IMG/VR virus record: IMGVR_UViG_3300045988_001082
Coordinates: 1-6,551 of that record
From: a virus
Direction: 5' to 3' (one strand)
Length of the DNA stretch: 6,551 bases
Numbering within the stretch: position 1 is the first letter of the stretch; every line of letters starts with the position of its first letter. The notes below the pieces were generated by a model. That model made no database searches and had not been told where the DNA came from. It saw nothing but the letters and a program-made list of their open reading frames with translations. The position numbers were made by a program, and so were the translations under genes. Below are positions 1 through 6,551 of this stretch, one piece after another.

Positions 1-36
1 CGCATCAAACGTAGCGTCAAAAATGTTTTGTGCCAT
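1..36 (-). CDS. VP1: Duplicated 5' end (first 12 codons, MAQNIFDATFDA) of the VP1 gene, an artefact of the circular permutation
   Basis: Position 36 corresponds to 6460 (offset 6424). The sequence is identical to the VP1 start region at the other end of the window. Confidence 0.8.
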   Translation of the reverse strand, partial: MAQNIFDATFDA

Positions 37-127
37 TAAATTGAGGTTTAATTGTTAATGAATCTACCTTTTGCTGAGTAGTTTGTTGAGAATCTTGTTT
101 TGAATTAGAATTTTTCCAAAACACAGA
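1..127. repeat. Terminal direct repeat: bases 1-127 are identical to 6425-6551. This is circular-permutation redundancy of a 6424-nt circular genome, not an att site.
   Basis: Direct comparison shows every base of 1-127 equals 6425-6551. The repeat carries the VP1 start codon (36 = 6460) and the 3' end of the 71-aa ORF, so it is coding sequence duplicated by linearising a circle. Confidence 0.9.
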
Positions 128-232
128 CATAGACGCAGTACAAGATTGCACTGTAAGAGCAGTAATCACACCAATAATGAATGTAGAAATAAGCTGTACA
201 AGCTTAATCCACTGGGTAGGAGTAATTTTCAT
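17..232 (-). CDS. Hypothetical small membrane protein, 71 aa, with one predicted transmembrane helix (IKLVQLISTFIIGVITALTV) and a polar Q/S/T-rich C-terminus. Its 3' end overlaps the VP1 start by 20 nt.
   Basis: An ORF in the track. Its start is coupled to the upstream ORF by ATGA. It is the last of the coupled small-ORF chain and ends inside the VP1 5' end (also seen as 6441-6551 at the other end). No homology is recognised. Confidence 0.45.
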   Translation of the reverse strand: MKITPTQWIKLVQLISTFIIGVITALTVQSCTASMSVFWKNSNSKQDSQQTTQQKVDSLTIKPQFNGTKHF

Positions 233-393
233 AATTTTTCAAGAATTAATAAAACATCATAACCTATATTAGCATCCTGCAATAACTTACGAAAACGTTC
301 AGCAGATGAAGGACGGCTAAATATACCAAGACTTATGATAAATTCTTCTTGAAGATTTTCTCTTTTAATGAATTTTACACTAGTTTTATACAT
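229..393 (-). CDS. Hypothetical small protein, 54 aa (MYKTSVKFIKRENLQEEFIISLGIFSRPSSAERFRKLLQDANIGYDVLLILEKL). It is the C-terminal two-thirds of the 92-aa track ORF (229-507), restarted at an internal Met.
   Basis: Its ATG (393-391) lies 1 nt after the TAA of the 59-aa ORF. Its TGA overlaps the next ATG as ATGA (229-232). The alternative model is the full 92-aa ORF, whose N-terminal 38 aa are strongly hydrophobic but overlap the 59-aa ORF out of frame. Confidence 0.35.
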   Translation of the reverse strand: MYKTSVKFIKRENLQEEFIISLGIFSRPSSAERFRKLLQDANIGYDVLLILEKL

Positions 394-394
394 A

Positions 395-574
395 TTAATA
401 CATTTCCTTAAAGAATGAAACATGAAACACATTTTGAGAATTAGATAAACGGCGAGCATAAGCACGAGCGTCATTAATAGACATTTGAGTTTTCTTGCGA
501 TACTCATGAGGCTTCAGTTGGCCAGATTTAGGGTCACGCCAAGCAATTTCAAAAATAAATGTGTATTTATTCAT
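395..574 (-). CDS. Hypothetical small basic protein, 59 aa (MNKYTFIFEIAWRDPKSGQLKPHEYRKKTQMSINDARAYARRLSNSQNVFHVSFFKEMY)
   Basis: The start overlaps the stop of the 57-aa ORF (ATGAATAA). It ends with a TAA that lies 1 nt before the next ATG. The composition is protein-like. It competes with the 92-aa alternate-frame ORF 229-507 in the track. Confidence 0.4.
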   Translation of the reverse strand: MNKYTFIFEIAWRDPKSGQLKPHEYRKKTQMSINDARAYARRLSNSQNVFHVSFFKEMY

Positions 575-832: not shown

Positions 833-2188
833 TTAAATCTTCTCTTTTCTATAATGTTTATACATTTTCTCACGAACATCGTAAGAGGCTTTCTTAATAT
901 TAAGCTCTTCACGCATAGCCATACGGGCGTTAATAGCGGCCTGTTGGAGAGCATTCATTTGCAATGATTTTTCATGCTTCAGGACTTGAGAAGAATCAAA
1001 AAACACAAGAGCAGTAGAAAGACAATCAAGCGCATAAGAAAATGCTTTATAATATAGATCCTCATAAACAGTCTGTGAACAGAATTGAGGAAGATAATAT
1101 TTTATGAATGTATCATTTATAACAGTTTTATAAGGGTTATAATACGGAGTTTTGCCAGTCATACGAACGAGGCGAAGATATTCCTCAGGGTAAGTAAACT
1201 TAAACGATAGTTTGTATTGCTTATGAAGATAACGAGCAACTTCAAACCAACGTACAGTATCCTTAAAGTGTTTAATAAAATTAGGGTCATAGCACATTGA
1301 GGTAGAAGGCATAAATTTCATTCGATAGTAACGAGGCAGCATAGTAGTAAGAGATTGACCGGTATATATATTGATAACAGACATATCACATGTATCGGGC
1401 TGTTGTTCATAGAAGGCGCGAAGTTGTTCAGCATAAGCAGAACCAATACCACCGTTTTTGCGAGAAGCAAGCATAAATGTAGGGTTCATACCTTCAGGGG
1501 CACACTCACGTTTACCCATGTATTTCATGACATAATTGATACCACCATTAATAACAGGAACACAATAAGCAAAACCAATAGACCTAGTAACAGGTGATCC
1601 ATCAGGATTGTACTCACCAGTAGGACGACGCCAGCAGCTTTCAATGAGCGTAAGTCGCGAGTATGCGGTTTCGAAGTTATCAGGGAAATTCCATAATATA
1701 ATATGATAGTGAGGACGTTTAGACCAATGTCCGTACTCAGAAACTGCAATATAGCGAAGGTTATGAGAAATACCACGTCTATCCAGTTTAGTACGAAGGC
1801 GTTTAAAAAAGAGTTGGATTTCTTCGGGAAAGACTCCATTTTTCGGTAGATGTTCATTGTTGTAAGTAAGAGTTATAAAATAGGCTTGTTTATTAGAGGT
1901 ATATGATTCACAGAGGGCACGAAATGACCATTGCTGGGCCTTCTTTTCATTACAAAGAGCACATTTGTTACAGGGAACAATCAAAAACATTGGAAATGTT
2001 TCGCCAGTAGCAGGATTTACAATAGTATATTTATCAATATTGTTTTTATTGACATGGTTTTTATTCACATGAAGAACGGAGCCGTGATATACTCCGGAAG
2101 GCATTGTAAACGTACGATACTTTTGTATCAACTTAGAGGCATGTGGATGCCAAATTACTTTCGGGTCTTCGCAGTAGATATTATTCAT
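833..2188 (-). CDS. VP4: Rolling-circle replication initiation protein (VP4; phiX174 gene A superfamily, HUH endonuclease), 451 aa
   Basis: Motif I is FITLTY (aa 104-109, nt 1862-1879). Motif II is HUH, HYHIILW (aa 160-166, nt 1691-1711). Motif III has two catalytic tyrosines, YVMKYMGK (aa 219-223, nt 1520-1534). There is also a CNKCALC (CxxCxxC) cluster at aa 73-79. This is the typical Microviridae Rep architecture. Confidence 0.9.
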   Translation of the reverse strand: MNNIYCEDPKVIWHPHASKLIQKYRTFTMPSGVYHGSVLHVNKNHVNKNNIDKYTIVNPATGETFPMFLIVPCNKCALCNEKKAQQWSFRALCESYTSNKQAYFITLTYNNEHLPKNGVFPEEIQLFFKRLRTKLDRRGISHNLRYIAVSEYGHWSKRPHYHIILWNFPDNFETAYSRLTLIESCWRRPTGEYNPDGSPVTRSIGFAYCVPVINGGINYVMKYMGKRECAPEGMNPTFMLASRKNGGIGSAYAEQLRAFYEQQPDTCDMSVINIYTGQSLTTMLPRYYRMKFMPSTSMCYDPNFIKHFKDTVRWFEVARYLHKQYKLSFKFTYPEEYLRLVRMTGKTPYYNPYKTVINDTFIKYYLPQFCSQTVYEDLYYKAFSYALDCLSTALVFFDSSQVLKHEKSLQMNALQQAAINARMAMREELNIKKASYDVREKMYKHYRKEKI

Positions 2189-2355: not shown

Positions 2356-3243
2356 TTAACGGAATCCAATTGGAGACATAGACTTTCCAAGGAAACCACC
2401 TTTTTGCAGAGAAGTTGTAGCACCAGCAAATTGACCAACGGCAAACGAAATAGAATTAATCCAAGTTGTAGCAACATTAGTAGCGCGTTCAGTTGAGTCC
2501 CAGTTTTTAGCCTGATCAAAATTGAATTTAGCATGCTGATTCGAGATATCAATACCCGTTTGTCTGTATAACTCTGTCATAGTCTGTTCACTAGCCAACA
2601 TACCTTGCTTCTTTTGCATATAAGTAGACGCATTCAGGTTCATTACACGAGCCAACTGGGTAGCCATCATGTCTTGCACTTCAGCAGCATTAAGAGCAAT
2701 ACGAGAATTGCTCTCTTTCATCTCCTGATATGTCTTCTTACACAAGAGTTCGAATTCCTGAGAACGCAAGTACCTATCAAATTTCATCTGAACTATCTTC
2801 TCATCTATTTCATGCTGTTGAGACTTCATTGTATTAATACGTTCACGAGCTTCAGCCATGGCAACGTCAATTTCTTGAAGTTTCTTAGCAGCTACTTCAG
2901 CTTCCGCATGATTTAACTGTCCGAGCTCATGATTCACATAGATAGTTGAGTTATTGAGCTCAATATCACTTTCAGTACGAGCCTTACGCAGTAAATAATC
3001 AGCTGTAAGTAAACTTTCTTCAGTATCCGTTTTCTTACTCTGCGATTCAGCAAGACGAGCTTGAGCAGCTTTCAATCCAGTATCAGCAGCAATTTGCGCA
3101 GTCTGTCCGTAAGTATTCGTAGGTATCACATTAAACCGAGGTGTAGGAGCTTGTGCAGGAGCTTCAGGAGCAGTTGCATTTCCTATATCACCACGAGAGT
3201 ACATTAAATCCGGATTTAATCCGGCGTCTTTCAAACGTTGCAT
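2356..3243 (-). CDS. VP2: DNA pilot / minor capsid protein (VP2, H-like), coiled-coil body, 295 aa. It probably continues from the 3231-3506 ORF through a +1 frame change.
   Basis: Long Q/E/K/A-rich predicted coiled-coil (AEAEVAAKKLQEIDVAMAEARERINTMKSQQHEIDEKIVQMKFDRYLRSQEFELL...), as in the H/VP2 pilot proteins. It starts MQRLKDAGLNPDLMY, which I recall as resembling a conserved VP2 block (K-x-AGLNP-x-L-x-Y). In this frame a TAA lies 8 codons upstream of the ATG. Confidence 0.7.
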   Translation of the reverse strand: MQRLKDAGLNPDLMYSRGDIGNATAPEAPAQAPTPRFNVIPTNTYGQTAQIAADTGLKAAQARLAESQSKKTDTEESLLTADYLLRKARTESDIELNNSTIYVNHELGQLNHAEAEVAAKKLQEIDVAMAEARERINTMKSQQHEIDEKIVQMKFDRYLRSQEFELLCKKTYQEMKESNSRIALNAAEVQDMMATQLARVMNLNASTYMQKKQGMLASEQTMTELYRQTGIDISNQHAKFNFDQAKNWDSTERATNVATTWINSISFAVGQFAGATTSLQKGGFLGKSMSPIGFR

Positions 3244-3506
3244 CTGGCAGCAGGTGAATTGTAAGAGTTATTTTTCTCATACATTTGTTCAATCCATTGC
3301 TGTTGTGCGAGACGTTCTTCACGAGCGAATTTACTTTCACGCTCGAATGCTTCAGCGGACTGCTTACGATTACTTTTATTTCCGAAAAAGCTACTGATAG
3401 CAGATATGGCGGCACCTCCGATGCCGCCAATTACTGTACCTAAACCTGGGGAAATAGCGGAACCAAGAGCAGCACCAGAAGCAGCACCAGCACCAACATT
3501 TGCCAT
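3231..3506 (-). CDS. VP2: N-terminal segment of the DNA pilot / minor capsid protein (VP2, phiX174 H-like): a glycine-zipper-rich hydrophobic N-terminus, 91 aa
   Basis: MANVGAGAASGAALGSAISPGLGTVIGGIGGAAISAISSFFG resembles the Gly/Ala-rich transmembrane N-terminus of phiX174 H (MFGAIAGGIASALAGGAMSKLFGGG). The ORF ends 13 nt inside the next ORF, in another frame. Confidence 0.6.
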   Translation of the reverse strand: MANVGAGAASGAALGSAISPGLGTVIGGIGGAAISAISSFFGNKSNRKQSAEAFERESKFAREERLAQQQWIEQMYEKNNSYNSPAARCNV

Positions 3507-4097: not shown

Positions 4098-4259
4098 TTA
4101 TTTTCTAGGAGTACAGAGCTCATAAACAGCAAGTGAGGCATATTTAGAAGACAAAGACGTGTAATAATCTACCATTTCATCATAAGTCATACATTTAAAT
4201 TCCTCAACAAACGGTTTATAAACATCAATAGAATACCTAAACAAATAATAATTTCTCAT
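4098..4259 (-). CDS. Hypothetical small protein (53 aa: MRNYYLFRYSIDVYKPFVEEFKCMTYDEMVDYYTSLSSKYASLAVYELCTPRK). It is below the 60-aa track cutoff and was found by hand translation.
   Basis: Its ATG overlaps the VP1 stop as TAATG (1-nt overlap at 4259), a classic translational-coupling arrangement. The composition is protein-like and it ends with TAA at 4098-4100. No homology is recognised. Confidence 0.4.
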   Translation of the reverse strand: MRNYYLFRYSIDVYKPFVEEFKCMTYDEMVDYYTSLSSKYASLAVYELCTPRK

Positions 4260-6460
4260 TAGTCCAAACGAGGTATCGCAACACGGCTGATTGGTAATCG
4301 GGCGGTAGCATTAAACTTCACATAACCGAAAATTTTATCCGTGTACTCGGTAACGCTGAATACCTGATTAACCGTATCAGAGTCAACGAGTAAAAACTGT
4401 TGGCCAAGTTGAGGTAATCCGGAGAACACACGAGACATAATGAAATTTTTCATGTTAGTACGGAACAAGCCGTGCGCGCTATCATACTTAGCAACATATT
4501 CATACCATGGACGTTGATAACCGAATGTTTTATTCAATTGATTAGTACTGTCATTTGCAACAATATTCATTGGGCAAATTTCCTTATACGTAACAGGTTG
4601 GAAGCCGATACGGTCAAATTCCGGTTGATAGTGATCTAACAGACCGTTATATATAAAATCTTTAGGCAACAATTGCGTATAAATAGGTACAGGAGTCACA
4701 GTTAACAAACCAATAATATAAGACTCCTCATCACAGAACACTTCAATATTATTAGATGTAGAACCATAAACTCCAGCAATGCCAGTTTTAGAGCCAAGAG
4801 CTTCAGCATACTGTCCTTGAGAAGATGAGCCTTGTTGATCTACTGTTTGCTCAACAGTACGCATAGACAACTCGCGAGAAATACCTCCAATAAATTCAGG
4901 CATGAGAAGTTCATCAAAACGGATGTCAATATCCCAACGACCTTGCATAATCTGTTTGTATGAAAAACCTTTACGCATGTTAAGTTCCAAGAATTTTTGG
5001 TAAGCATTAACATAACGAAGAGTCTCAATAGTAAATCCAGAACCTTGTTCAGTAGCAAGAGCAGCTAATTCGGCATAAGAATTAATAGCAGTCACAGGCG
5101 TTTTTTCTGATACAGGATCATAATCAACACCTACAAGACGCTCACCATCTTCAGACACTTTATAAGATACACCGTATTTAGAGCCATCCTCATCAACAAG
5201 TACAGTTTGCTTTTGTACGGAGTAAGTTCCATCTTCAGAACGGGTAACAACATCACCTACTGTAAGCCCAACAAGAGGAGCATTCGCGCCTTGTTGCGGA
5301 TTCGGAACAGCGGTGGTTAAAAAATCACGTTCCCAATTACATTGATGAAGCTCATATAACGTAGTGTCGGCACCACCTTTCATGGTCGGAAGCCATTTAT
5401 TATAAACGGGACGACCATTAACTATAAATGGATTATTACGTATGTCACGATAATAAGCATTATAAACAGATTCATAAGCGCGAAAACGATAGGCCAACAA
5501 ACGAGGATTATTGGAACGATTTTCAGTAGCAAACGGATACGTACTATACTGCACATCATTTTGCAAAGCATAATACGTGTAAGTTACATTAAAAGAAATA
5601 TTAGCAAAACTAATAGGAGCAGCAGTATTAGGAGCAGTAACAACAACCATTGGGGTACCTTGGATATTACCCAAACTAGACGGGTCAATAGACGAAATAC
5701 TAAAACCGACAACACCATCAGCAGATTTTTTAAACTCAAGGGGTAAATCAAAACTGTAAGAAGCATCATCGGTAAGAAAAACAAAATAACCTCTTGCACC
5801 GTCAAAAACTCCAGATTGTCCACCAGTGAGGGTTACATCTATGCCAACTTGAGAAGTGGTAGAAGGAATAGGATTCGCAGAACCGCCGGTAACAAAAACA
5901 ATAGTTTGAGTACCATTAGTATTCAAAGAAGTAGTGCATACTTGAGAGGGAATACCGTTATTAGCGCGAATACTACTTATAACCTCAGATAAAACGACAT
6001 CCGTAACAGAACGAGAATTAACAGCGCAAGGTTTATCATGTAAAGTAGTAGTTAGAGAAATACGAGTTCCAAACGTAGGTAAACCTAAATAATCGCCTAA
6101 TGAACCAGTCCGACACATTTGATTAAAACGAAATGAATCAGGCAAAATATAAGGTTCTTCCAAATCATCACGGAAATTCGAAATAAAGTCGGAATAGTCT
6201 TCCCACATGGAACGAAGAGTTACCTTGAAGAAATTAAGACGAGCAAACATACGAGTCTGTACAGGAAATACCATAGGCATAAGTTCGAGACCAAACTCGG
6301 GATTAATACGAAGAGAACCTTTAGCAGGAACAAGCTCACAGAACACAGGAGTAATACGACCGAAATTAGTAGTCAAATTGTTCACATGAGACCAATCAAA
6401 TGAATTTACATCAATACGATTATTCGCATCAAACGTAGCGTCAAAAATGTTTTGTGCCAT
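4259..6460 (-). CDS. VP1: Microviridae major capsid protein (VP1, F-protein jelly-roll family), 733 aa
   Basis: A 733-aa ORF in the provided track. The N-terminus (FDWSHVNNLTTNFGRITPVFCELVPAKGSLRINPEFGLELMPMVFPV...ARLNFFKVTLRSMWEDY) matches the conserved microvirus VP1 pattern (SH...FG.I.P.FC.E.LP...L.P.V.P...FFFV..R..W). Its length is typical of the larger-capsid microvirus lineages. The start codon lies inside the terminal repeat; the first 12 codons are also seen at 1-36. Confidence 0.9.
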   Translation of the reverse strand: MAQNIFDATFDANNRIDVNSFDWSHVNNLTTNFGRITPVFCELVPAKGSLRINPEFGLELMPMVFPVQTRMFARLNFFKVTLRSMWEDYSDFISNFRDDLEEPYILPDSFRFNQMCRTGSLGDYLGLPTFGTRISLTTTLHDKPCAVNSRSVTDVVLSEVISSIRANNGIPSQVCTTSLNTNGTQTIVFVTGGSANPIPSTTSQVGIDVTLTGGQSGVFDGARGYFVFLTDDASYSFDLPLEFKKSADGVVGFSISSIDPSSLGNIQGTPMVVVTAPNTAAPISFANISFNVTYTYYALQNDVQYSTYPFATENRSNNPRLLAYRFRAYESVYNAYYRDIRNNPFIVNGRPVYNKWLPTMKGGADTTLYELHQCNWERDFLTTAVPNPQQGANAPLVGLTVGDVVTRSEDGTYSVQKQTVLVDEDGSKYGVSYKVSEDGERLVGVDYDPVSEKTPVTAINSYAELAALATEQGSGFTIETLRYVNAYQKFLELNMRKGFSYKQIMQGRWDIDIRFDELLMPEFIGGISRELSMRTVEQTVDQQGSSSQGQYAEALGSKTGIAGVYGSTSNNIEVFCDEESYIIGLLTVTPVPIYTQLLPKDFIYNGLLDHYQPEFDRIGFQPVTYKEICPMNIVANDSTNQLNKTFGYQRPWYEYVAKYDSAHGLFRTNMKNFIMSRVFSGLPQLGQQFLLVDSDTVNQVFSVTEYTDKIFGYVKFNATARLPISRVAIPRLD

Positions 6461-6551
6461 TAAATTGAGGTTTAATTGTTAATGAATCTACCTTTTGCTG
6501 AGTAGTTTGTTGAGAATCTTGTTTTGAATTAGAATTTTTCCAAAACACAGA

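What the first reader, a model, noticed from the sequence alone, without database searches (positions are those of the whole stretch)
17..232. 71-aa single-transmembrane protein encoded immediately upstream of and overlapping VP1: candidate lysis or membrane-targeting factor
The 71-aa ORF has MKITPTQW, then a 20-residue hydrophobic helix (IKLVQLISTFIIGVITALTV), then a polar C-terminus rich in S, Q, T and K. Microviruses outside the phiX group have no identified lysis gene. Small membrane proteins that inhibit cell-wall synthesis, such as phiX174 E, are the known microvirus strategy. This protein's size and topology are compatible with that role, and equally with a holin-like, spanin-like or superinfection-exclusion role.
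Basis: inference. Interest (0 to 1): 0.6.

Follow-up and report, generated by a model that had tools for sequence, protein, structure and literature searches.

The report
Conserved small lipoprotein gene before capsid gene
The 71-codon reading frame is a real, strongly conserved gene of gut microviruses that encodes a lipoprotein-type precursor related to the uncharacterised Bacteroidota "smalltalk" peptides, which sit next to cell-wall hydrolase genes, so it is the best candidate for how these abundant phages, which carry no cell-wall enzyme, open their host.

Summary
The ORF is real (window 17..232, minus strand). It has over 1000 close homologues, and a profile search found 90 clusters at 50% identity. 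dN/dS is about 0.13 to 0.14, and in most relatives the gene ends 0 to 3 nt before the VP1 ATG.

It is better described as a lipoprotein precursor than as a plain single-pass membrane protein. It has K2, a hydrophobic core, the lipobox T-V-Q-S-C, and Cys31, which is invariant in every full-length homologue. It is the only one of 100 Met-initiated ORFs in the window that passes the PROSITE-type lipoprotein rule.

At family level, the first 30 residues are homologous to Pfam DUF6486 / NCBIfam "smalltalk protein" (hhalign 95.6%, Cys aligned to Cys). Some microvirus members pass the curated cutoffs. The window protein does not (11 bits).

Bacterial smalltalk genes lay within two genes of a signal-less M15_3 peptidase or Amidase_2 in 6 of 8 contexts examined. 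Sister microviruses carry an M15 peptidase in the same Rep–VP1 slot, and one has a smalltalk mini-ORF directly after it. No genome examined had both the peptidase and the long lipoprotein.

Best reading, by inference only: a lysis effector of microviruses that lack the peptidase. The function is untested. The 71-aa length and the 20-nt overlap with VP1 come from a T-run one base shorter than in relatives; the usual form is 65 aa.

The parts
17..232 (-). Complete CDS of the 71-aa precursor (ATG 232-230, TGA 19-17). The usual form in relatives is 65 aa.
   Evidence: dN/dS 0.13-0.14.
143..232 (-). Residues 1-30: n-region (MKITPTQWIK), hydrophobic core and lipobox T-V-Q-S. This is a predicted SPII signal peptide, homologous at family level to smalltalk/DUF6486.
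   Evidence: PS51257-type rule passed by this ORF alone among 100 Met-ORFs. hhalign of family versus bacterial smalltalk 95.6%, E 1e-8, Met-to-Met and Cys-to-Cys. The window protein itself scores only 11 bits. dN/dS 0.10-0.15. Helix with high pLDDT.
140..142 (-). Codon of Cys31 (TGT), the predicted lipid-modified +1 cysteine.
   Evidence: Invariant in 240/240 close homologues and in every full-length distant member.
38..139 (-). Residues 32-65: conserved polar mature peptide (TASMSVFWKNSNSKQDSQQTTQQKVDSLTIKPQF). Family motif is C-T-x-S-[LM]-S-[VI]-x-K-N-N-x-N-S-x-Q-x-x-x-Q...V-D-S. Predicted to be disordered.
   Evidence: Invariant D57, nearly invariant Q50 and S58. dN/dS 0.13-0.16. pLDDT <50 for residues 46-58.
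17..37 (-). Atypical 6-codon C-terminal extension (NGTKHF) plus stop codon. It overlaps the VP1 start by 20 nt and is created by a T-run one base shorter than in relatives (window about 38-41).
   Evidence: Junction comparison with 12 relatives. Length distribution of homologues.
4259..6460 (-). VP1 major capsid protein gene (733 aa), immediately downstream of the lipoprotein gene on the circular genome.
   Evidence: Pfam Phage_F E 6e-43. PHROG 514.
229..393 (-). Upstream small soluble-protein gene. Its stop overlaps the lipoprotein ATG (ATGA). The probable true start is Met39 of the 92-aa ORF. The hydrophobic N-terminal extension up to 507 is not conserved.
1..127 (.). Terminal redundancy of the circular assembly, identical to 6425-6551. 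It carries the 3' part of the ORF twice.

Best explanation
The ORF encodes a small lipoprotein-type precursor that most likely acts as the lysis effector of this microvirus lineage, whose host is probably in the Bacteroidota.

Proposed mechanism:
1. The 30-residue N-terminus (K-containing n-region, about 15-residue hydrophobic core, lipobox TVQS|C) directs Sec-dependent insertion into the cytoplasmic membrane.
2. Cys31 is diacylglycerylated by Lgt, and the signal peptide is cut off by signal peptidase II.
3. This yields two products. One is a conserved, smalltalk-like hydrophobic peptide left in the inner membrane. The other is a lipid-anchored, disordered polar peptide of about 35-41 aa on the periplasmic side.
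4. One or both products compromise the envelope late in infection. The smalltalk-like part would act in a holin-like, membrane-perturbing way.
5. The conserved tail would provide the cell-wall-directed activity that sister microviruses obtain from an M15 endolysin encoded at the same locus. It might do this by blocking peptidoglycan synthesis or by triggering host autolysins. This resembles colicin lysis lipoproteins, which are small lipoproteins whose cleaved signal peptide is also reported to be active (my recollection, not checked in a paper).

Shown here:
- The gene is real and under purifying selection.
- It has lipoprotein-precursor features with an invariant Cys.
- It is homologous to smalltalk at family level.
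- Smalltalk genes are linked to peptidoglycan hydrolase genes.
- No genome examined carries both this gene and the M15 peptidase.

Inferred, not shown: processing, location, and any lytic activity.

The confidence of 0.5 is for the lysis role. I put about 0.97 on the gene being real and about 0.7 on it being processed as a lipoprotein.
For: Real gene:
- Over 1000 homologues, 90 clusters at 50% identity, dN/dS 0.13-0.14.
- Fixed Met 30 residues before the Cys (31 in one locus).
- The stop lies 0-3 nt from the VP1 ATG in most genomes.

Lipoprotein precursor:
- It is the only Met-ORF of 100 in the window that passes the PS51257-type rule.
- Cys is invariant in 240/240 close homologues and in all full-length distant members.
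- One JGI record names a homologue 'lipoprotein'.

Smalltalk link:
- Family members P0273, P0267, P0283 and P0314 score 37-54 bits against NF033879 (cutoff 24.7). P0273 scores 55.7 bits against PF20096 (cutoff 22.7).
- hhalign of the family against bacterial smalltalk gives 95.6%, E 1e-8.
- P0331-type proteins join a bona fide smalltalk N-terminus to a mature part like the window's.

Lysis context:
- Bacterial smalltalk genes lie within two genes of M15_3 or Amidase_2 in 6 of 8 contexts.
- Those hydrolases, and the microviral M15 peptidases, lack signal peptides.
- Microvirus L094 has an M15 peptidase directly followed by a 28-aa smalltalk ORF.
- Among 18 genomes sampled across the VP1 ranking, 10 have an M15 peptidase in the Rep–VP1 slot, 2 have the lipoprotein and none has both.
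- None of 88 lipoprotein-bearing loci has the peptidase. Nor do four further lipoprotein-bearing genome types fetched later.

No rival in the genome:
- No other conserved small ORF product in the window has a membrane-targeting signal. VP2's N-terminal glycine-zipper segment belongs to the pilot protein.
- No peptidoglycan hydrolase domain is found in any window ORF.

Signal-peptide constraint:
- The signal-peptide part is as constrained as the mature part (dN/dS 0.10-0.15), which suggests it is itself functional.
- L094 and L096 encode only this part, stopping one residue before the Cys position.
Against: - No functional data exist for smalltalk/DUF6486 or for any member of this family. No paper mentions DUF6486, and one paper lists 'smalltalk protein' only in a gene table.
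- The window protein itself does not reach the smalltalk cutoffs (11 bits). The close-clade profile gives only 54.6%.
- The lack of co-occurrence with the peptidase is not significant in the unbiased sample alone (P about 0.18). The larger sample is phylogenetically clustered.
- The lipobox is atypical at -2 (Q, and E or H in relatives). A minority of members have N, K, D or Y at -1.
- Matches to holin families are below threshold (15.7 and 14.1 bits against a cutoff of 27).
- The genome has no endolysin, so a purely holin-like action would not by itself explain cell-wall breakdown.
- An overprinted lysis gene elsewhere in the genome, like phiX174 E, was not excluded.
- The host is not established. 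Only two short contigs in Bacteroidota assemblies were found.
Confidence: 0.5

Rival explanations
1. It is a superinfection-exclusion or receptor-masking lipoprotein, working like T5 Llp or phi80/N15 Cor. The mature lipopeptide would reach the outer membrane and block the phage receptor. This would prevent reinfection and stop debris from inactivating progeny.
For: Small phage-encoded lipoproteins with this role are well known (my knowledge of Llp and Cor). The protein has a lipoprotein signal and a short polar mature part.
Against: No match to any Pfam, PHROG or PADLOC family of that kind. The gene is core and slowly evolving in several lineages whose VP1 has diverged to about 50% identity. 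The bacterial homologues sit beside cell-wall hydrolases, not receptors. Masking a receptor gives no reason for the gene's absence from genomes that carry the peptidase.
Confidence: 0.15
2. It is not processed as a lipoprotein. It would be an uncleaved N-in/C-out single-pass membrane protein: a small class-III-like holin, or an E-like inhibitor acting through its membrane helix. The conserved Cys would serve another purpose, such as a periplasmic disulfide.
For: The helix is predicted through residue 43, across the putative cleavage site. The lipobox is non-canonical at -2, and a minority of members have N, K, D or Y at -1. One nr record calls a homologue 'SPP1 phage holin'. There are weak holin-family matches. 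The N-terminal part is strongly conserved.
Against: Cys sits at the exact end of the hydrophobic core and is preceded by S, A or G in the large majority. It passes the PS51257-type rule. The uncharged core is only about 15 residues in most members (E10/K13), which is short for a stable membrane span. Bacterial smalltalk peptides end 2-8 residues after the same Cys, as expected of a signal peptide with a lipobox.
Confidence: 0.15
3. It only disrupts the outer membrane (o-spanin or disruptin-like), or it serves a non-lytic role such as a signalling peptide or envelope modulator. Lysis would be caused by another, unrecognised gene, possibly an overprinted one.
For: Rz1-type o-spanins are lipoproteins with mature parts of about 40 aa (my knowledge). 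The name 'smalltalk' suggests to me that its curators had signalling in mind. Overprinted genes were not searched for systematically here, and PMC9239249 also omits them.
Against: No i-spanin partner, no C-terminal membrane helix, and no endolysin in the genome. The mature part is not proline-rich and has no further Cys. No other conserved membrane ORF was seen.
Confidence: 0.12
4. It is a chance ORF, or the conservation is a by-product of overlapping genes.
For: The ORF is short and the genome is AT-rich (63% A+T), which yields many hydrophobic off-frame ORFs.
Against: dN/dS is 0.13-0.14, with synonymous divergence up to about 1.3. Overlap with neighbouring genes is only 4 to about 38 nt at the 5' end and 0-20 nt at the 3' end. 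The gene occurs in lineages with different gene order.
Confidence: 0.02

Closest known systems
Smalltalk protein (NCBIfam NF033879) / Pfam DUF6486 (PF20096) of Bacteroidota
   Same: The N-terminal 30 residues have the same architecture in register: Met, K-rich n-region, hydrophobic core, small residues, then Cys. hhalign of the family gives 95.6%. Some microvirus members pass the curated cutoffs. Both are associated with M15_3-type hydrolases: in bacteria and in microvirus L094.
   Different: Bacterial smalltalk proteins are 33-42 aa and end 2-8 residues after the Cys. The window protein carries a conserved tail of 35-41 aa. It scores below the cutoff (11 bits), and its genome has no hydrolase. 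The function of smalltalk is itself unknown.
Colicin lysis proteins / bacteriocin release proteins (Pfam Lysis_col)
   Same: The resemblance is in how it might work. Both are very small SPII lipoprotein precursors with a polar mature lipopeptide of about 28-40 aa rich in S, T and Q. As I recall (not checked in a paper here), the cleaved signal peptide of the colicin proteins is also functional. That fits the unusually constrained signal peptide here.
   Different: No sequence match. The colicin proteins are plasmid genes of Enterobacteria that act through the outer-membrane phospholipase. Nothing of that kind has been shown here.
phiX174 protein E and other single-gene lysis proteins (LysM, MS2 L)
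   Same: A small membrane-targeted protein in a tiny phage genome that lacks an endolysin. Its N-terminal hydrophobic segment is under sequence constraint.
   Different: No homology. This gene is a separate gene, not overprinted. It has a lipobox Cys and a conserved periplasmic tail. E acts from the cytoplasmic side on MraY (my recollection, not checked in a paper here).
Holin-endolysin cassettes, with the M15_3 peptidases of Alpavirinae and gokushoviruses (PMC3394797)
   Same: Same genomic slot (Rep–VP1) as the M15 peptidase plus mini membrane ORF of sister microviruses. The hydrolases lack signal peptides, so they need a membrane partner.
   Different: The window genome has no hydrolase. Holin-family matches are below threshold.
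T5 Llp, Cor and lambda Rz1 phage lipoproteins
   Same: All are small phage-encoded lipoproteins of Gram-negative hosts.
   Different: No sequence match. No i-spanin partner. The gene context and distribution point to lysis rather than receptor masking.

Membership tests
Bacterial lipoprotein precursor (SPII signal; PROSITE PS51257-type rule) | K or R within the first 7 residues, and Cys between positions 15 and 35 | tested here: met
   K2 and Cys31.
Bacterial lipoprotein precursor (SPII signal; PROSITE PS51257-type rule) | Lipobox [LIVMFWSTAG]2-[LIVMFYSTAGCQ]-[AGS]-C, preceded by 6 uncharged residues | tested here: met
   GVITAL-TVQS-C. This is the only one of 100 Met-initiated ORFs in the window to pass. 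236 of 240 close homologues pass; the other four have H at -2 or Y at -1.
Bacterial lipoprotein precursor (SPII signal; PROSITE PS51257-type rule) | The +1 Cys is conserved across homologues | tested here: met
   240/240 close homologues. All full-length representatives have it; it is absent only from truncated or frameshifted fragments. It is one of two invariant columns in A2.
Bacterial lipoprotein precursor (SPII signal; PROSITE PS51257-type rule) | Actual lipid modification by Lgt and cleavage by LspA | not testable with these tools
   This needs palmitate labelling, globomycin treatment or mass spectrometry. SignalP and LipoP were not available.
Smalltalk protein / DUF6486 (NF033879, PF20096) | Score at or above the curated cutoff (24.7 and 22.7 bits) | tested here: not met
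   The window protein scores 11 bits, E 0.28, against NF033879 and has no PF20096 hit. Family members P0273, P0267, P0283, P0314 and P0362 do pass, at 37-56 bits.
Smalltalk protein / DUF6486 (NF033879, PF20096) | Profile-level homology in register (start to start, Cys to Cys) | tested here: met
   hhalign A2 versus A6: 95.6%, E 1e-8. The close-clade profile A1 gives only 54.6%, E 1e-4.
Smalltalk protein / DUF6486 (NF033879, PF20096) | Length of about 30-40 aa, ending a few residues after the Cys | tested here: not met
   This family is 65-71 aa with a conserved tail of 35-41 aa. Bacterial members are 33-42 aa.
Holin (Pfam Holin_SPP1, Phage_holin_10, and others) | Sequence match at or above the gathering score | tested here: not met
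   No hit for the window protein. P0411 versus Holin_SPP1 scores 15.7 bits against 27. P0254 versus Phage_holin_10 scores 14.1 bits against 27.
Holin (Pfam Holin_SPP1, Phage_holin_10, and others) | Encoded next to an endolysin gene | tested here: not met
   No hydrolase in the window. The feature is met for the smalltalk mini-ORF of L094 and for bacterial smalltalk genes.
Holin (Pfam Holin_SPP1, Phage_holin_10, and others) | Forms a lethal membrane lesion when expressed | not testable with these tools
   Requires an experiment.
Colicin lysis protein (Pfam Lysis_col) | Sequence match to the family | tested here: not met
   No hit in the Pfam scans of the window protein and six relatives.
phiX174 E-type lysis protein | Sequence match, and a gene overprinted inside another gene | tested here: not met
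   No Pfam or PHROG hit. The gene is separate, overlapping its neighbours by only 4 and 20 nt.
Llp/Cor superinfection-exclusion lipoproteins and known defence proteins | Sequence match to the family | tested here: not met
   No PHROG, Pfam or PADLOC hit.
o-spanin (Rz1-like) | A partner i-spanin gene (type II membrane protein) that is adjacent or embedding | tested here: not met
   No such ORF is conserved. The hydrophobic N-terminus of the upstream ORF is absent in the sister clade.

The most novel reading that the evidence does not exclude
The gene is a new type of single-gene lysis system: a lipoprotein precursor in which both cleavage products act. The released 'smalltalk' signal peptide would be a minimal holin-like agent of about 30 aa in the inner membrane. 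The lipid-anchored tail of about 35 aa would replace an endolysin by disabling cell-wall synthesis or releasing host autolysins. By extension, the uncharacterised smalltalk/DUF6486 peptides of Bacteroidota would be the membrane partners of the signal-less M15_3 and Amidase_2 hydrolases next to them. That would make them the smallest holin-like proteins known.
Probability: 0.25. Interest if true: 0.8.

Novelty: new variant of a known kind. Interest (0 to 1): 0.6.

Why it matters
How microviruses outside the phiX174 group lyse their hosts is largely unknown. Some carry M15 peptidases, but many, including this abundant gut lineage, carry no cell-wall enzyme.

This analysis turns a 'hypothetical protein' into a specific, cheaply testable candidate: a 65-aa ORF with clear mutants to make (C31S, signal peptide alone, tail alone).

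It also links the ORF to an uncharacterised Bacteroidota peptide family that sits beside peptidoglycan hydrolases. If confirmed, three things would follow:
- A lipoprotein-type lysis protein would be added to the short list of single-gene lysis mechanisms.
- Smalltalk/DUF6486 would gain a function.
- A new envelope weak point in Bacteroidales could be revealed.

Tried and rejected
Searches with no hit:
- Pfam, PHROGs, NCBIfam and PADLOC scans of the window protein gave no significant family. The smalltalk lead came only from sub-threshold NCBIfam hits that were followed up with relatives.
- A profile search of the PDB gave only a designed membrane coiled coil at E 0.44.
- AlphaFold2 gave one helix and a disordered tail, so no fold search was worth running.

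Host assignment:
- A scan of genome contigs with VP1 found nothing.
- A scan with the lipoprotein profile found only two short contigs, one from Chitinophaga silvisoli and one from a Bacteroides MAG. No prophage was found.
- The 12-kb contig carrying a homologue is a head-to-tail concatemer, not a prophage.

- Alignments A2 and A5 were too divergent for the search for related loci.
- Bacteroides phage phiHBP1, the only cultured Bacteroidota microvirus in the literature searched, is a distant relative (VP1 21% identity). It has an M15 peptidase and no lipoprotein, so it offers no experimental system for this gene.

Ideas rejected:
- The hydrophobic N-terminus of the upstream 92-aa ORF was considered as a rival membrane protein. 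It is not conserved in the sister clade and overlaps the 59-aa gene.
- Apart from L094 and L096, the mini-ORFs that follow the peptidase in relatives do not score as smalltalk.

Literature:
- Searches for Microviridae plus lipoprotein, single-gene lysis plus lipobox, smalltalk protein, DUF6486, and Microviridae plus holin found no description of this gene.
Full report
**Observation.** The window is a circular 6424-nt microvirus genome assembled with a 127-nt terminal redundancy: 1-127 equals 6425-6551. All recognisable genes are on the minus strand:
- VP1, 6460..4259, Phage_F.
- A pilot protein (VP2) split into two frames, 3506..3231 and 3243..2356.
- Rep, 2188..833.
- Several small ORFs.

The reported ORF (232..17, 71 aa) is present with exactly the quoted sequence. 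Its stop lies 20 nt inside VP1 once the circle is closed. Its ATG overlaps the stop of the upstream small gene (ATGA).

**It is a real gene.**
- A search of 5.8 billion proteins returned over 1000 homologues, almost all from contigs of about 6.4 kb, the size of a microvirus genome. The best 120 are at least 87% identical.
- A second subfamily is represented by Tortoise microvirus 1 and bajarodmic virus 65.
- A profile search of 1.84 billion cluster representatives found 90 clusters at E ≤ 1e-3.
- Across 65 fetched loci, Nei-Gojobori dN/dS is 0.14 in the window clade and 0.13 in the sister clade, with dS up to about 1.3.
- The start Met is fixed 30 residues before a conserved Cys in all but one locus, where it is 31.
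- In most genomes the stop lies 0-3 nt before the VP1 ATG.
- The 65-aa form is typical: 164 of 240 close homologues. The window's extra NGTKHF and its overlap with VP1 come from a T-run one base shorter than in relatives.

**What the protein is.** The '20-residue helix' ends in T-V-Q-S-C31.
- The Cys is invariant in 240 of 240 close homologues.
- It is also invariant in every full-length distant member. It is missing only from truncated or frameshifted fragments.
- The protein satisfies the PROSITE PS51257-type rule: K in the first 7 residues, six uncharged residues, the lipobox, and Cys at position 31. It is the only one of 100 Met-initiated ORFs of at least 30 aa, in all six frames of the window, to do so.
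- In most relatives positions 10 and 13 are E and K. The uncharged core is therefore about 15 residues, which is typical of a signal peptide rather than a membrane anchor.
- The part after the Cys has a conserved motif, C-T-x-S-[LM]-S-[VI]-x-K-N-N-x-N-S-x-Q...Q...V-D-S, with D57 invariant.
- AlphaFold2 predicts a single helix over residues 5-43 and a low-confidence tail.
- One JGI record names a homologue 'lipoprotein'.

So the product is most simply a signal peptidase II precursor that yields a lipopeptide of about 35-41 aa. Processing itself is inferred.

**Link to a catalogued family.**
- Sub-threshold NCBIfam hits to the 'smalltalk protein' model (NF033879, 29 positions) appeared for the window protein and for relatives.
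- Other family members pass the curated cutoffs clearly. P0273 scores 53.7 bits, P0267 50.6, P0314 44.1 and P0283 36.9 against a cutoff of 24.7.
- P0273 scores 55.7 bits against Pfam DUF6486 (cutoff 22.7).
- P0331- and P0362-type microvirus proteins combine a bona fide smalltalk N-terminus with a mature part, CTATMSVFWKNANSQQKSEQS...MDS. This is plainly the same as the window's CTASMSVFWKNSNSKQDSQQ...VDS.
- Profile-profile comparison of the whole family with bacterial smalltalk proteins gives 95.6% probability, E 1e-8. Met aligns with Met and Cys with Cys.
- The close-clade profile alone gives 54.6%.

The window protein is therefore a diverged, C-terminally extended relative of smalltalk, not a scoring member of the family.

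**Context of smalltalk.** Bacterial smalltalk proteins are 33-42 aa and end 2-8 residues after the Cys. An example is Prevotella sp. HUN102, MKKETWKLVIQLLLSVLTALGTTLGVTSCAGMM. In 6 of 8 distinct genomic contexts, the gene lies within two genes of a peptidoglycan hydrolase:
- M15_3 – HU-HIG – smalltalk.
- M15_3 – x – smalltalk.
- HU-HIG – smalltalk – Amidase_2, with an 18-nt gap, and the same order with a wider gap.
- Smalltalk overlapping the start of an M15-like gene.

These hydrolases, and the microviral M15 peptidases, have no signal peptide. This is the situation in which an endolysin needs a membrane partner.

**Distribution in microviruses.**
- Eighteen GenBank genomes were sampled across the VP1 similarity ranking. 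Ten carry an M15 peptidase in the Rep–VP1 interval. Two carry the lipoprotein immediately upstream of VP1: L090, with a canonical TFGC lipobox, and L097. Six carry neither, and none carries both.
- None of 88 lipoprotein-bearing loci has the peptidase; 58 of these are at least 5.5 kb.
- The same holds for four further lipoprotein-bearing genome types fetched later. One of them has a different gene order.
- The small unbiased sample is not significant on its own (P about 0.18), and the large one is phylogenetically clustered. I treat this pattern as suggestive only.
- Nine of the ten peptidase genomes have a K-rich hydrophobic mini-ORF of 27-34 aa between the peptidase and VP1.
- The L094 mini-ORF scores as smalltalk at 25.7 bits. 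L096, which has no peptidase, has a 30-aa smalltalk ORF scoring 45 bits in the same place.
- Both stop one residue before the position of the Cys. Together with the low dN/dS of the signal-peptide part (0.10-0.15), this suggests the N-terminal peptide is itself a functional unit.

**Mechanism.** My best-supported reading is that this is the lysis effector of microviruses that lack the peptidase.
1. The precursor is inserted through Sec, lipidated at Cys31 and cleaved.
2. The smalltalk-like peptide stays in the inner membrane.
3. The lipid-anchored conserved tail acts on the periplasmic side.

The closest functional analogy is the colicin lysis lipoproteins, which are small lipoproteins whose cleaved signal peptide is, as I recall, also reported to be active (not checked in a paper). 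There is no sequence relationship to them.

My probabilities:
- About 0.97 that the gene is real.
- About 0.7 that it is processed as a lipoprotein.
- About 0.5 that it functions in lysis.

**Rivals.**
- A receptor-masking lipoprotein like Llp or Cor, 0.15.
- An unprocessed single-pass holin-like or E-like protein, 0.15.
- An outer-membrane-only or non-lytic role, with lysis encoded elsewhere, 0.12.
- A chance ORF, 0.02.

**Other candidates in the genome.** No window ORF has a hydrolase domain. The hydrophobic N-terminus of the upstream 92-aa ORF is not conserved in the sister clade, and that gene probably starts at Met39. Overprinted genes were not searched for exhaustively.

**Host.** No prophage was found. 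The long contig is a concatemer. Only two short contigs were found in genome assemblies, one from a Bacteroides MAG and one from Chitinophaga silvisoli. Three things point to Bacteroidota without proving it:
- The homology to smalltalk; the one bacterial member whose organism was named is from Prevotella.
- The gut origin of the contigs.
- The literature on Alpavirinae (PMC3394797, PMC9239249).

The residues after the Cys (T-A-S-M) lack the acidic surface-export signal that I recall being described for Bacteroidota surface lipoproteins. That would predict a periplasm-facing location. This rests on memory and was not tested.

**Novelty.** No paper in the searched library describes this gene, DUF6486, or a lipoprotein-type lysis gene in microviruses. 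Database records call the homologues 'hypothetical protein', with one 'lipoprotein' and one 'SPP1 phage holin'. I rate it a new variant of a known kind: a phage lysis membrane protein or small lysis lipoprotein. It makes a long-standing question directly testable.

Noticed in passing
window 3231-3250 (minus strand): The VP2 pilot gene is split into two overlapping frames (3506..3231 and 3243..2356). The cause is a C-run one base shorter than in relatives: GCTGCCAGATG, versus GCTGCCCA(A/G)ATG in L075, L074 and L001. All six relatives checked keep VP2 in one frame. This is either a defective genome or a homopolymer sequencing or assembly error.
   Followed up: yes
window 33-43: A second homopolymer difference in the same genome. 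A T-run one base shorter removes the usual TAA of the lipoprotein gene and adds six codons that overlap VP1. Variants of 71-73 aa also occur in other datasets.
   Followed up: yes
L094 6059-6145; L096 6290-6382; L095, L098, L099, L101, L103-L106 between peptidase and VP1: Nine of the ten related microviruses that carry an M15 peptidase have a K-rich hydrophobic mini-ORF of 27-34 aa just before VP1. In most it directly follows the peptidase, and in some the stop and start overlap as ATGA. Only L094 scores as smalltalk. L096, which has no peptidase, has a 30-aa smalltalk ORF in the same place. These may be the membrane partners of the peptidase.
   Followed up: partly
L110-L112, L115-L117, L121, L122, L130-L132 (bacterial and metagenome contigs): Bacteroidota smalltalk/DUF6486 genes recur in a cassette with an HU-HIG DNA-binding protein and a signal-less M15_3 peptidase or Amidase_2. 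DUF4248 is sometimes present, and an integrase or transposase is sometimes nearby. The function of the cassette is unknown.
   Followed up: partly
L107 (OM869709) 5730-5930: A genome with neither the peptidase nor the family lipoprotein has an apparently unrelated ORF with a canonical lipobox (..LVSLTSC|TSYRSS..) ending at the VP1 start. This may be an analogous gene, or an off-frame artefact that overlaps the annotated 121-aa ORF.
   Followed up: no
L091 (OL617023) 5797-5946: A 49-aa ORF just before VP1 has one hydrophobic helix and a strongly basic tail (..RRKLQRELKKKKEC). The genome has neither the peptidase nor the lipoprotein. This is another possible lysis peptide.
   Followed up: no
L032 (IMGVR_UViG_3300029371_000047) 270 onward: The lipoprotein ORF is fused in frame to VP1 because the stop is lost. 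This is a single case and is probably an error or a defective genome.
   Followed up: no
L108 (Dulem virus 245, PP511488) 4175-4372; L123-L129: The same lipoprotein family occurs in microvirus lineages with other layouts: between VP2 and Rep, or separated from VP1 by one or two further small ORFs. So the gene is older than, or moves between, these lineages.
   Followed up: partly
window 229-507 and 395-574 (minus strand): The 92-aa ORF overlaps the 59-aa ORF by 113 nt. The conserved part starts at Met39 (ATG 393-391), directly after the stop of the 59-aa gene. The long form with the hydrophobic N-terminus is probably not translated.
   Followed up: partly
P0281 (115 aa): A family member joined to what looks, from memory, like an enolase C-terminus. 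This was not checked and is probably a chimeric assembly.
   Followed up: no
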